DNA from: Camelus ferus
Lineage: Eukaryota
Assembly: GCF_009834535.1 (NCBI RefSeq)
Contig: NC_045696.1
Coordinates: 48,548,001-48,612,000, forward strand
Direction of reading: 5' to 3'
Length of the DNA: 64,000 nucleotides
The position numbers were made by a program, and so were the translations under genes. This document shows, one piece after another, positions 15,830 to 49,217 of the stretch. Under the pieces are notes generated by a model. It saw only the letters and a list, made by a program, of their open reading frames with translations, was not told where the DNA came from and ran no database searches. Position 1 is the first letter of the stretch. Each line of letters starts with the position of its first letter.

Positions 15830-16125
15830 TTGGTCTGTGACGTTTAAAACTAGAGCCAGGAGACAAACTATGGCATATAGTGCACAAAACAAAAAGGGCA
15901 GTCCGTTGGGCCTCAGCAGTATTTGCCGCCTGTGGACAAGGAGCTGGCATTCCCTACACCTCCGGGAGTGGCCGGAGGAAGAACAAGTACCCCGTATCCG
16001 CCGGGTTCGTGTTGAGGTTCCCACCACATACCACACACTGCGCTTCTTTATTATGGCTGCTAATTAACCAGCCACAACTGTAAAAAGGGACCAATAGAAT
16101 TAGGGAAAAATAAACCTTGAGTCAT
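15830..16125. promoter_or_regulatory. Candidate enhancer (CpG-enriched patch, tandem RUNX motifs, AP-1)
   Basis: About 9 CpG in 15900-16045; ACCACA twice (ccaccacataccacac); TGAGTCA at ~16118; unique sequence. Confidence 0.35.
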
Positions 16126-24328: not shown

Positions 24329-26114
24329 CTGACTGATTTACATCCAATTATCAATTTACATGCCATCATAAAATATGTGTAAAAATATTTTTAAAGTCGC
24401 TTTCCTTAAAAGATACCTATGTTTATTATAGCCACAACAGCTTCAAGATCTTTTCTTACAGCCATACATTTTAATGAAATTAATGATTATTAATGTAGAC
24501 TATATGTAATGCACATATTCAAAGGTAGTCATATCACTTATTGTTCAAAAATATTAGTGTTTATTGTTTCAGATTTTCTGTTTCTCATCTAACTGATCTC
24601 CTCTCAAGTCACTTGCAATGACTTTCCTTTGCATAGTTCATTTGGCTTAGAATCCGATAAAGTGTTCTGATTTCTTGGTAAGCTCTTGGAATAAGTCTCT
24701 GTTGCTATGGGAAGGTATCCAAAATTTATGGATCAGTAATCTAATCCAGACTGGCAACTCCTGTGGAATGAAATGACTTTCCCTTTTACTGTGTTCACTC
24801 TCTCACATGGAGCACCTGGTCACAAGCTCTATTCATCACCTCAGTCCAGTCTTCAAAATCACCTTCACAAGCCATGTTCCTGTCTTTTATGTAGCTTCCG
24901 ATTTTCCATGCTTGTGCTGATAAATTGGATGACATGAATGATTGTGTAAATGCCATTCTGATAGTTTTTGGAGCTCAGTTGTCTTCCTTCTGTACCACAG
25001 ATTCCAGGCTTTCTGAGTAGATAAGATTCAACATAGAATGTTATTTTGTGCCACAGGAAATGGTAAGTCCCATCCCTAATACAATCATGTATATATGGAG
25101 GAGTCATTTGGGAACAAATAATGTAATGAATTCCCAAAGAGGCATAACTTCAGAAGGAATAGCATAAATGTTCTTTCAATCATTCTAAAAACATAATGAG
25201 AGAAAGGTAGAAGATGTGATAGTACCAGATAAAAACTTGGAAATTTTGAGGTCATGGAAAGATTTTTCAGGGTAATAGATACTTAAATTCTAGTCTCATC
25301 TCTTTCACTTTTGTGACTTTGAACCAATAACTTCAATTTAAGTTCCCTGTCTGTATTATTGAAAGACTGGTGCAAGTAACCATTAACAGTCTTTCAAAGT
25401 TTGACTTCAGTTAATCTGAACCTTGATACCTTGATATCTATACTTTGATACATAGATAGGACTGAATTTTCAAGCAATTAAACCTAACTACTTTGACATG
25501 AGGTACATGGGAGACTCCCTTTCAAAAAACGTCCACCTACTCGATGCTCTAGATCTGAAAATAAATTTGTGACAACTCTTTTTGATCATGAAAGCTGTTA
25601 ATTTATCAAGGGAAAGGATTTCTCAGGGCTTACCAACCTGTGAATCTAGACTTCTTAGAATAAATACTGTTCCTAGGGACTGAGTGCAAGAAAAGGACCC
25701 AAATGGAGGAGGAAAGTACTTTAAAAAGAGGAAAAAGAAACCTCCTTCTACTTTGAAATCAACCTTAACACAACTTTTTCAATAAATAGTAACCAAACTC
25801 CAGGTGAATTTCCAATAGGCATTTCCATTTGGTTCCCACGTGTATGCTAAACAGAAGCCCAGGGAAGAGAAATTCACTTGGTTGAAAGATGACCTGTGAG
25901 AGGAGGTATGGAACATTAGCCTTTTTAGATTTCTGAAATTCAGAGATAATTGTATGGTATAAAGTTCCTGCGGTGTTCAGATCAAAACCAGACATTGATA
26001 GAAAATATATATGCTGTGGTGAAGGAATATATGTGTTAATACATACAAGTATATTTTACAGAAATATAAAACAAATGGGAGAGTAATGAACAGCCTATTG
26101 TGATGTAGTATTTG

Positions 26115-26160
26115 TGTAGCCATGTATCCTGGCATTTCTGTAGCCATGTATCCTGGCATT
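26115..26160. repeat. 24-bp-period tandem duplication
   Basis: tgtagccatgtatcctggcatt at 26115-26136 and 26139-26160, identical. Confidence 0.95.
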
Positions 26161-26512
26161 CCTACATACATGTCAACAAAGTTATGAAAAAAAGCTGTAG
26201 AATATTGAACATGCATGCGTGCTTGTAATGTAGTAAAATCCAAAGGAGGCATAACTTCAAGAAAATAGTAGATATGATCCTCCAATAATTCTAGATAATT
26301 TACTGATAAGAGGCAGTGGTTGTGATTATATAACCAAAAACCTTCAAAGTTCTGGAGTCCAAGGAACATTCTCAGGGTAGTACAGAATGATTGTAAAACC
26401 TCATCCTGCAAGGAGCAGGTAGCATTTGACCTCCTGAAATTAGCACCAGTGTCACACAGATGTGAGCTGAAGGTGGGGAATAATAAATAAATAAGTAAAG
26501 GCCCTAGCCAGC

Positions 26513-26740
26513 TCCAATGGCAGGGGGATCATTTTTACAGGCAGAAAATAATTATCCGGCTGGAAGTTAGCCAGAACACCAGAGAGTGAGCATCCTTATC
26601 CCGTCTCAAAATTCTGCGGGATTTTTAATGAACACAAATGGTCATGACCTTGAGTTACATGCTCCATCCACAATAAGAACTTCTTAACAGCAATGTTAGG
26701 GTGTTCCCTCCCTTGACCCCTGCTGCAGGGCACTGATTTA
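26513..26740 (-). mobile_element. AmnSINE1-like element (Deu domain)
   Basis: ggcagaaaataattatccggctggaagttagccagaacacc…gggatttttaatgaacacaaatggtcatgaccttgagtt…catcc is collinear with the remembered antisense Deu domain (ggcagaatgtaattaccc…tggaatttggccaggacacc…gggatctttaatgaccacaagtggtcaggacctcggtt…catcc). Confidence 0.7.
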
Positions 26741-27376
26741 GAAACAAGAATTAAGAAGTCTTTGAGATCTAGGAGGATAATGAGGACCCCTGCAAAAATT
26801 AGTCAGTTCAATTAAATGACAAATTTTACAGAATAGTAACAGTAGTGTTTTGGCGGCCAGTAGCAAACTGCAAAACTGCTTAACAAATTTCTACAAAGGA
26901 ATTTCATATCTAAATGACAAAGTGGAGATCATCTATAAGGGCTAAATACTGCTTCTGCTGCCATTTGGAACAGCTCTCCTATCCTCCCCAACACTAGTTT
27001 TACTTTTGTTCATTAGTCATGGTTTCCTTGTCTTGGACTAATTTTGCACACATGTATTTGATTTGCAGTGAATGGATGACAGATTAGCCAGATTGCAAAT
27101 CATAATTCAGCAGAGAGCCATGTAATGTAAATCACATAGCCCAGCATCCACTTCTGTTTGCCAAGACAGCATTCTTGGAAGTTGCCAGATAAAATGATAG
27201 CCCTCAGTTTGAATACCAAGCATCATTTGTGAGATGGTAGACTTTTTGAGAGCTTCTTAACAGGAACAAAGCTCTGATTTTGTGGCTGTAGCCCACAAAT
27301 TGCCAAAAAGATAAGGCCTCTAGGAGGACATTTCTATAATGGGATCACAAGGCAGAAATGGGAAAGTATCACTTTT

Positions 27377-27711
27377 TTTTTTTGCATGCTCTTTTTTATT
27401 TTTTAATTAAAGTGTAGTCAGGTATAGTGTGTCAATTTCTGGTGTACAGCGTAATGTCCCAGTCATGTATATAAATATACATATATTCATTTTCACATTA
27501 TTTTTCATTAAAGGTTATTACAAGATATTGAATATAGTTCCCTGTGCTATACAGAAGAAATCTGTTTTTTTAATCTATTTTTATATATAGTGGCTAACAT
27601 TTGCAAATCTCAAACTCCTAAATGTATCCCTTCCCACCCCCTTTCCCCTGGTAGTCATAAGATGGTTTACTATATCTGTGAGTCTGTTTCTATTTTGTAG
27701 GTGAGTTTATT
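27377..27711 (-). mobile_element. Young lineage-specific L1 3' end with 12-bp TSD
   Basis: Poly(T), then antisense L1 3' UTR (aatatagttccctgtgctatacag…gtgagtctgtttct). AGTATCACTTTT at 27365-27376 and 27712-27723. Confidence 0.9.
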
Positions 27712-36010: not shown

Positions 36011-36898
36011 GGGTCTCCTGTCCCTGCCAAAGGCATGCTTACGGAGCTGTTCCCCGTCTTTTAATATTTTGCAGTTTTCAGGGGCATTGATCTTTACCCC
36101 AAAATGAGGTCACTTAACGGCTGTTTATCTAGTCACCCAGATTCAAATACAGATGTCTTTGAAAGAAGATACATCTTGCGTCATTTTGCGACGGGGTAGC
36201 TGCAGCCAGACTTTGAAAACCTCCAGCTCTAAGCCACTTTCACAAGGCTACCAACTGCTCCTTCAGAATGGGATTCCTGTTTCTTCTGAAGAGTGGAGTT
36301 TGGGGACTGAGCAGCAATCACTAAAGAGAATTACCATGGTTCCACTGCTGAGAGCCAATTGTGTAGGTGTAGAGTGAGTGTGTAAATGCGTGTGTGCATG
36401 TGTGTGTGAGAGAGAGAGGGGAGGAGACAGACCGAGATCAAGAGGAGAGAGAGAATAAGATAGTGATTGGGTTCAGTGATTTATGCAACTATAGTTAAGA
36501 ATTACAAGCCTTGCATCATTAAGTCAACTTTTGCCATCTAGAATGAAACTGATTATTTTAAGCTATCCAAACAGAAAATATCTTTCTTCAGTGTGTTTAC
36601 TCATGCTTAAAGAATAATTGACAAAAAGACACTACATGTGATCAATAAGGCCCATGAATAAAGAAAGATTATTCATTCATTCACTCCTTTATTTAATGAT
36701 GCAACCAATGGTTTGAACATCAGTGAAATACAAAGCATGATGTTATTGTCCATTCAGTATGAACATGACAGGAGGTCAGACACTAAACAAACAATCCAAA
36801 AATGAATTATGCATTTGCAATTTTGGTAAAAGTCATACAGAGGAGAAAAACACGGGAACCTGTTACAGGAGGCATCTTTTATTCCCTCTTAATAACTC

Positions 36899-49197: not shown

Positions 49198-49217
49198 CGA
49201 GCGCCCCCTTGTGGTAA
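49198..49217 (-). promoter_or_regulatory. CTCF binding motif
   Basis: The minus strand reads TTACCACAAGGGGGCGCTCG; the core CCACAAGGGGGCGC (49201-49214) differs by one base from CCACCAGGGGGCGC. It sits in a local CpG-retaining patch. Confidence 0.65.

What the first reader, a model, noticed from the sequence alone, without database searches (positions are those of the whole stretch)
26513..26740. Probable AmnSINE1 Deu-domain copy: candidate exapted developmental enhancer
Seen: ~230 bp collinear with the antisense Deu domain, including the blocks GGCAGAA..TAATTA, TGGAA.TT.GCCAG.ACACC and GGGAT.TTTAATGA.CACAA.TGGTCA.GACCT (consensus recalled from memory). Established: AmnSINE1 was active in early amniotes, survives in low copy number in mammals, and several copies act as distal enhancers (e.g. 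near FGF8 and SATB2). Inference: staying recognisable this long suggests purifying selection and a regulatory role for a nearby gene. This is the best candidate in the window for an undescribed functional element.
Basis: partly seen in the sequence, partly recalled or inferred. Interest (0 to 1): 0.7.

Follow-up and report, generated by a model that had tools for sequence, protein, structure and literature searches.

The report
Ancient Deu-domain SINE relic, function untested
This is a real, worn-down 180-base piece of a very old jumping element of the kind that mammals carry in about 1,500 copies, some of which became gene switches, but nothing seen here shows that this particular copy is one of them.

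Summary
The three motif blocks are in the sequence as stated. The homology was tested without the recalled consensus: a window-derived pattern found 2 public loci. L001 has a weak 5S-rRNA-like head upstream of the shared core, the DeuSINE layout. Outside the search seed, L002 aligns at score 42 against a null maximum of 30 in 20,000 draws. An L001+L002 profile gives one hit in 64 kb, 26678-26500, minus strand. So 26499-26678 is a Deu-domain SINE fragment, probably AmnSINE1. Function is not shown: no orthologue, chromatin or RNA data were obtained. Published rates of conservation among human copies are about 14% to about 40%, and 68-76% block identity also fits neutral decay of a copy about 180 million years old. 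Earlier notes place the window in a camel genome, probably in the DPPA4-NECTIN3 gene desert (inferred). The scan had not recorded a confirmed AmnSINE1 copy before. Verdict: new member of a known kind; enhancer about 30%.

The parts
26499..26678 (-). Deu-domain SINE fragment (internal piece, probably of AmnSINE1); the span supported by tests
   Evidence: Only hit of the L001+L002 profile, 26678-26500, E 3.9e-8; seed-masked L002 hit 26576-26499, E 0.046
26616..26677 (-). Best-kept core block; holds the 27-nt search seed (26618-26644) and one TAAT-core site near 26625
   Evidence: 44 of 61 identical to L001; 34 of 45 to L002 over 26616-26661. The seed part is identical by selection; the extension beyond the seed is significant against L001 (18 vs null maximum 16 of 600)
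26550..26586 (-).
   Evidence: 25 of 37 identical to L001; local score 21, p 0.03. L002 aligns here only with gaps
26500..26557 (-).
   Evidence: 38 of 53 identical to L002; lies outside the seed; part of the score-42 alignment
26549..26554 (.). TAATTA homeodomain-type palindrome, shared with L002 and so inherited from the SINE
   Evidence: Motif scan: 1 site (counted on both strands) against 0.24 strand-counts expected per 242 bp; alignment to L002. The motif label is recalled
26679..26740 (-).
   Evidence: No match to the L001 flank, p 0.99; rests only on recalled likeness to the consensus

Best explanation
A dead internal fragment of a Deu-domain SINE, most likely AmnSINE1, inserted on the minus strand long before the camel lineage arose. 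Shown: about 180 bp of collinear Deu-type homology. Shown: no detectable 5S head and no detectable 3' tail. Inferred from known SINE biology: without head and tail it cannot be transcribed from its own Pol III promoter or be copied again. Inferred: it lies in non-coding DNA, probably the DPPA4-NECTIN3 gene desert. The single most likely state is a passive or only weakly constrained relic. It is one survivor among about 1,500, visible because its core blocks eroded slowly by chance, by past constraint or by late insertion, and it has no enhancer role of its own. Step odds: Deu-domain origin 0.95, AmnSINE1 0.85, measurable constraint across mammals about 0.45, enhancer activity in some tissue about 0.3.
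For: Homology outside the seed. L001 shows the 5S-head-plus-core layout that PMC4824008 and PMC3234267 describe for vertebrate DeuSINEs. No 5S match in 26200-27300, p 0.51 against the L001 head and p 0.80 against the L002 3' part. 0 tRNA genes in the window. No special fold (z -0.09). 0 of 150 best-scoring open frames (of 1,026 outside masked repeats) reach a Pfam cut-off. Most human copies are not classed as conserved. Block identities of 68-76% match the about 69% expected of a neutral copy about 180 million years old (rate recalled). None of the chr3 AmnSINE1 rows in S3 of PMC5065162 lies at the inferred position, but that table lists only 54 of 626 loci.
Against: Outside the seed the window is closer to L002 (score 42) than any of 120 pairs among 16 MIR-like relics in the window are to each other (maximum 36, median 20), although MIR is the younger family. 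That hints at slower decay. The hint is weakened because L002 was picked for being well kept, and because the MIR-like stretches were chosen by eye and cover different parts of that element. The fragment is long for the family. The family is enriched for enhancer marks: nearly half of human copies in open chromatin and 3.9-fold in cortex p300 peaks (PMC3757057), fetal H3K27ac (PMC6904449), Sox2 binding (PMC13063735) and RELA binding (PMC12212084).
Confidence: 0.5

Rival explanations
1. An exapted distal enhancer module. Homeodomain or POU factors bind the TAAT cores kept in the Deu blocks, and the fragment, probably together with non-SINE flanks, tunes a distant gene, most plausibly NECTIN3 about half a megabase away (position inferred).
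For: 626 conserved human copies. Most predicted Oct-1, Brn-2, Nkx6.1, Cart-1 and S8 sites of conserved copies lie in the Deu domain (PMC3234267). Two TAAT-core sites fall in the best-kept blocks. Similarity above the MIR-pair control. 38 of 53 beats a 300-million-year neutral expectation, p 0.014. NECTIN3 is named as a locus with high non-coding conservation among closer species (PMC5585340).
Against: No orthologue, chromatin or reporter data. One TAAT site lies inside the search seed and the other is shared with L002, so neither shows selection. 0 octamer, 0 SOX and 0 NF-kB motifs in the fragment. Even in the proven wnt5a enhancer the AmnSINE1 part alone was inactive. The target gene rests on unchecked notes and recalled human coordinates.
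Confidence: 0.3
2. A fragment of another Deu-domain family (AmnSINE2, a LmeSINE1-type element or the Repbase 'DeuSINE'), not AmnSINE1. The questions on function are the same.
For: The head that separates these families is missing. Repbase lists DeuSINE, LmeSINE1b and LmeSINE1c among human repeats; LmeSINE1 is a DeuSINE; AmnSINE2 is named in PMC6904449.
Against: AmnSINE1 is the Deu family with about 1,500 reported human copies. My recalled likeness is to AmnSINE1; this comes from no call.
Confidence: 0.12
3. An antisense exonised SINE piece, used as a small exon of a + strand non-coding transcript.
For: An AG and a GT bracket 47 bases inside the fragment (seen). Exon-like stretches with strong splice signals lie 1.5-2 kb to the left.
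Against: No acceptor or donor inside 26499-26678 ranks in the top 4% of the 8,833 AG and 6,692 GT sites of the window on a crude matrix. 47 bases is not a multiple of three.
Confidence: 0.04

Closest known systems
AmnSINE1 (570-bp consensus: 5S head, tRNA-derived part, Deu domain, L2-type tail; PMC3234267 and PMC4824008, passages read)
   Same: Deu-type central sequence, degraded, in non-coding mammalian DNA; length like that of the AS071 SINE part (204 bp).
   Different: Only about 180 bp of the middle is detectable; no head, no tail; not scored against the published consensus.
AS021 (Satb2), AS071 (Fgf8) and AS3_9 (wnt5a) enhancers (PMC3234267, PMC3427154, PMC5065162; passages read)
   Same: Same kind of source sequence; partial copies far from genes; identity in a similar range (AS3_9 is 71.4% to the consensus).
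   Different: Those loci were shown to be conserved across mammals and active in transgenic mice, in AS071 and AS3_9 together with flanking modules. Neither is shown here.
Locus L001 (SINE3-type element in a public metagenome contig)
   Same: Shares the core and middle blocks (44 of 61 and 25 of 37 identical).
   Different: Keeps a 5S-like head (22.5 bits, E 0.087, below the gathering score of 38); the contig ends inside the Deu part.
Locus L002 (Deu-type copy in a public metagenome contig)
   Same: Shares the core and the 3'-side block (34 of 45 and 38 of 53 identical).
   Different: Has a deletion in the middle block; its further 3' part has no detectable match in the window (p 0.80).

Membership tests
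DeuSINE superfamily | Central Deu-domain homology | tested here: met
   By proxy: collinear similarity to L001 and L002 outside the seed; L001 has the 5S-head layout. Not tested against the published consensus.
AmnSINE1 | 5S rRNA-derived head with Pol III promoter | tested here: not met
   No 5S match among 4 Rfam matches at E up to 10 in 26200-27300; p 0.51 against the L001 head. Expected of a fragment, but it leaves the subfamily unproven.
AmnSINE1 | tRNA-derived segment between head and Deu domain | tested here: inconclusive
   0 tRNA genes by ARAGORN; no match to the L001 stretch behind its head (p 0.99). These tests are too weak for a decayed partial tRNA.
AmnSINE1 | L2-type 3' tail | tested here: inconclusive
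   No match to the 3' part of L002 (p 0.80); whether that part of L002 is the tail was not verified.
AmnSINE1 | Best score to the AmnSINE1 model rather than AmnSINE2 or LmeSINE1 | not testable with these tools
   No Dfam or Repbase library here; the consensus is in figures or files I could not read.
AmnSINE1-derived conserved enhancers (AS021, AS071, AS3_9) | Orthologue conserved across mammals | not tested
   No genome is held for this window, 0 look-alike stretches in the scan's other windows, and no reads or contigs were laid on it.
AmnSINE1-derived conserved enhancers (AS021, AS071, AS3_9) | Enhancer activity (chromatin marks, reporter) | not testable with these tools
   Needs epigenomic data or a transgenic assay.
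AmnSINE1-derived conserved enhancers (AS021, AS071, AS3_9) | Homeodomain or POU sites kept in the Deu domain (seen in AS021, not in AS071) | tested here: inconclusive
   Two TAAT-core sites present, 0 octamer and 0 SOX; one lies in the seed, the other is shared with L002.
MER6-type DNA transposon with a SINE-derived module | Terminal inverted repeats around the element | tested here: not met
   1 chance-level 12-mer pair; none of the 25 longest of 50 inverted pairs brackets the fragment closely.

The most novel reading that the evidence does not exclude
A so far untested, mammal-wide conserved enhancer in the DPPA4-NECTIN3 gene desert, in which the Deu fragment supplies homeodomain or POU sites and works with the adjacent, anciently duplicated 180-bp module (25119-25300 and 26226-26405) to drive NECTIN3 in the developing nervous system or sense organs.
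Probability: 0.15. Interest if true: 0.45.

Novelty: new member of a known kind. Interest (0 to 1): 0.2.

Why it matters
Three AmnSINE1-derived enhancers are described in detail in the papers I read, out of hundreds of conserved copies. A fourth, with a named target, would add an example of transposon co-option in mammalian development but no new principle. As it stands the finding is a sound repeat annotation that any RepeatMasker or Dfam run should reproduce, and a cheap candidate to check against existing human and mouse conservation and chromatin tracks.

Tried and rejected
Own-genome and handle searches: nothing held. Rfam at gathering score: 0 matches in the window. Pattern scans with no hit: viral contigs 3 of 3, genome contigs 2 of 2. 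Sequencing runs: 14 of 24 rows hold all 91 sampled words, 13 of them marked as a possible source; 5 RNA-type rows hold 22-29% of the words and 1 holds 4%. None was laid on the stretch, so they say nothing about expression or conservation, and both questions stay open. Consensus text in supplements: none for PMC3234267 and PMC3427154; the PMC4824008 file has no Deu alignment in parts 1-2 of 4 or by search. Host gene by Pfam: 150 of 1,026 frames scanned, 2 weak matches below cut-off. Locus 16 of S3 in PMC5065162 (chr3:108.12 Mb, minus strand) was considered as the human orthologue. Rejected: it is 109 bp, abuts a MIR, and lies about 2 Mb from the inferred position. The idea that the neighbouring 180-bp twin carries a decayed second SINE copy, which would be an internal control: no match (p 0.67-0.93, 0 profile hits). 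The null printed for the twin included the twin itself and was replaced. RNA structure: z -0.09. Exonisation: weak splice sites. First attempt at a MIR control found no second copy and failed; redone with 16 stretches chosen by eye. Print check: 'AmnSINE1' with 'camel' gave 3 papers, and 'NECTIN3', 'enhancer', 'gene desert' gave 4. No listing pointed to this locus, but only two of the seven were opened, and Nishihara 2006, Sasaki 2008 and Hirakawa 2009 were not read.

Full report
Verdict. The enhancer reading is possible but untested, at about 30%.

Setting. The window is mammalian non-coding DNA, 28-48% G+C in 2-kb bins. It has 0 Rfam matches at gathering score and 0 tRNA genes. No genome is held for it. 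Of 1,026 stop-free frames of 30 or more codons outside masked repeats, the best-scoring ones and a few long ones, 150 in all, were scanned against Pfam; 2 gave weak matches below cut-off. Earlier notes, unchecked, call the genome a camel. They place ROBO2 22.1 Mb and CADM2 16.2 Mb before the window, and BTLA 1.55 Mb and GSK3B 7.54 Mb beyond it. With recalled human coordinates and a scale of 0.74-0.81 this points to about 110.3-110.8 Mb on human chromosome 3, the gene desert between DPPA4 and NECTIN3. This is inference. A late-replicating gene desert beside Dppa2/4 is described in mouse (10.1101/285650, passages). The list of human genes that contain AmnSINE1 has none between MYH15 and PLCXD2 (PMC12015672 Table S1). 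That fits an intergenic copy but does not show that a human orthologue exists.

The observation. They were fitted from memory, so I looked for independent relatives. A pattern with 21 fixed bases from the third block found 2 loci in metagenome contigs and none in the viral or prokaryote collections. L001 has a 5S-rRNA-like stretch about 120 bases upstream of the seed (22.5 bits, E 0.087, below the gathering score). A 5S head followed by a shared central domain is the layout described for vertebrate DeuSINEs such as AmnSINE1, SINE3-1 and OS-SINE1 (PMC4824008 and PMC3234267, passages). L002 carries the seed and the sequence 3' of it.

Tests outside the seed. L002 downstream: local score 42, null mean 17.1, maximum 30, 0 of 20,000 draws reaching it. 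L001 upstream, anchored at the seed edge: 18 against maximum 16 of 600. The other three anchored tests are not significant alone (p 0.07, 0.07, 0.31); the sum of all four is 31 against a null maximum of 24. Seed-masked L002 finds 26576-26499 as its only hit in 64 kb (E 0.046); seed-masked L001 does not find the site. With the seed included, a profile of L001+L002 gives 1 hit, 26678-26500, E 3.9e-8. Block identities are 38 of 53 and 34 of 45 to L002, and 25 of 37 and 44 of 61 to L001. The likeness is therefore more than chance.

What is missing. No 5S match in 26200-27300 and none to the L001 head (p 0.51). No match to the further 3' part of L002 (p 0.80). No bracketing inverted repeats beyond chance, which argues against the DNA-transposon trap of note e1-642210. 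No unusual fold (z -0.09). No strong splice sites inside it. Because the head is absent and no repeat library was at hand, I file it under the DeuSINE superfamily and call AmnSINE1 probable (0.85, partly on recall). AmnSINE2 and LmeSINE1-type elements remain possible.

Does recognisability imply selection? Not by itself. Human has about 1,500 copies (PMC12015672, passages). About 14% were called highly conserved, and a later screen counted 626 overlapping phastCons elements (PMC5065162, passages), about 40% if the counts are comparable. Over 95% of ancient transposon copies in general evolve neutrally (PMC3649676, passages). With a recalled rate of about 2.2e-9 per site per year, a neutral copy would keep about 56% identity after 300 million years and about 69% after 180. 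The 38 of 53 block beats the first (p 0.014) and not the second (p 0.40), and it is a best block from a gapped alignment. In favour of constraint: 0 of 120 pairs among 16 MIR-like relics of the window reach score 42 (maximum 36, median 20). But L002 was selected for being well kept, and the MIR-like stretches were picked by eye and overlap different parts of that element. At family level the enhancer prior is high: nearly half of human copies in open chromatin and 16 copies in cortex p300 peaks (PMC3757057), fetal H3K27ac enrichment (PMC6904449), Sox2 and RELA binding (PMC13063735 and PMC12212084); all read as passages. The fragment keeps two TAAT-core sites, the type predicted in the Deu domain of conserved copies, but one is in the seed and the other is shared with L002. 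No orthologue, chromatin or RNA data were obtained for this copy, so the direct test is open.

How it most likely works. As a mobile element it is dead (head and tail not detected; consequence inferred). The likeliest state is a passive or weakly constrained relic (0.5). The main rival is an accessory enhancer module bound by homeodomain or POU factors and acting on NECTIN3 (0.3 for any enhancer activity, 0.15 for the full NECTIN3 reading). In the proven cases the SINE part works with flanking modules, and at wnt5a it is inactive alone, so any test should include the flanks.

Known or new. The seven chr3 loci in S3 of PMC5065162 (19.0, 54.9, 61.2, 89.7, 102.7, 108.1 and 116.8 Mb) do not match the inferred position, but that table lists 54 of the 626 conserved copies. 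The full lists of Sasaki 2008 and Hirakawa 2009, and figure supplements of PMC3234267 and PMC3427154, could not be seen and may include the orthologue. Searches for AmnSINE1 with camel and for a NECTIN3 desert enhancer gave no listing on this locus. The scan's notes hold no confirmed AmnSINE1 copy and no look-alike stretch. PMC8143547, PMC5753468 and PMC5585340 were read as passages for background. Class: new member of a known kind. Interest 0.2.

Noticed in passing
window 25119-25300 and 26226-26405: Old local duplication, 124 of 178 identical (70%), 1,107 bp apart, ending about 95 bp from the SINE fragment. A weak further extension to the left (p 0.012-0.08). No third copy in the window and no SINE copy in the twin. 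Origin unexplained.
   Followed up: partly
window 24637-24677 and 25001-25062, + strand: Two exon-like stretches with good acceptors and donors (the donor at 25063 is in the top 0.2% of the window; a second acceptor at 25055 would give a 6-base exon). All three frames of both longer stretches have stops, so non-coding if used at all.
   Followed up: partly
window 36050-36500: CA- and GA-repeat-rich stretch with raised CpG that looks like a promoter or first exon on the minus strand (by eye); no gene assigned.
   Followed up: no
window 49198-49216: Close match to the CTCF motif (motif recalled) inside the most CpG-rich kilobase of the window (observed/expected 0.57).
   Followed up: no
window 27395-27700, minus strand: About 300 bp of a young L1 3' end of the camelid type (family recalled), 650 bp from the SINE fragment.
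   Followed up: no
window 26110-26157: Two head-to-tail copies of a 24-bp unit, 96% alike, just left of the second twin copy.
   Followed up: no
window 15840-16080: CpG-richer stretch with several overlapping open frames (up to 127 codons on +, 130 on -); no Pfam match. Possibly a decayed retrocopy.
   Followed up: partly
L001 1-322, minus strand: A 5S-headed Deu-type SINE inside a public metagenome contig, which points to animal host DNA in that assembly.
   Followed up: partly
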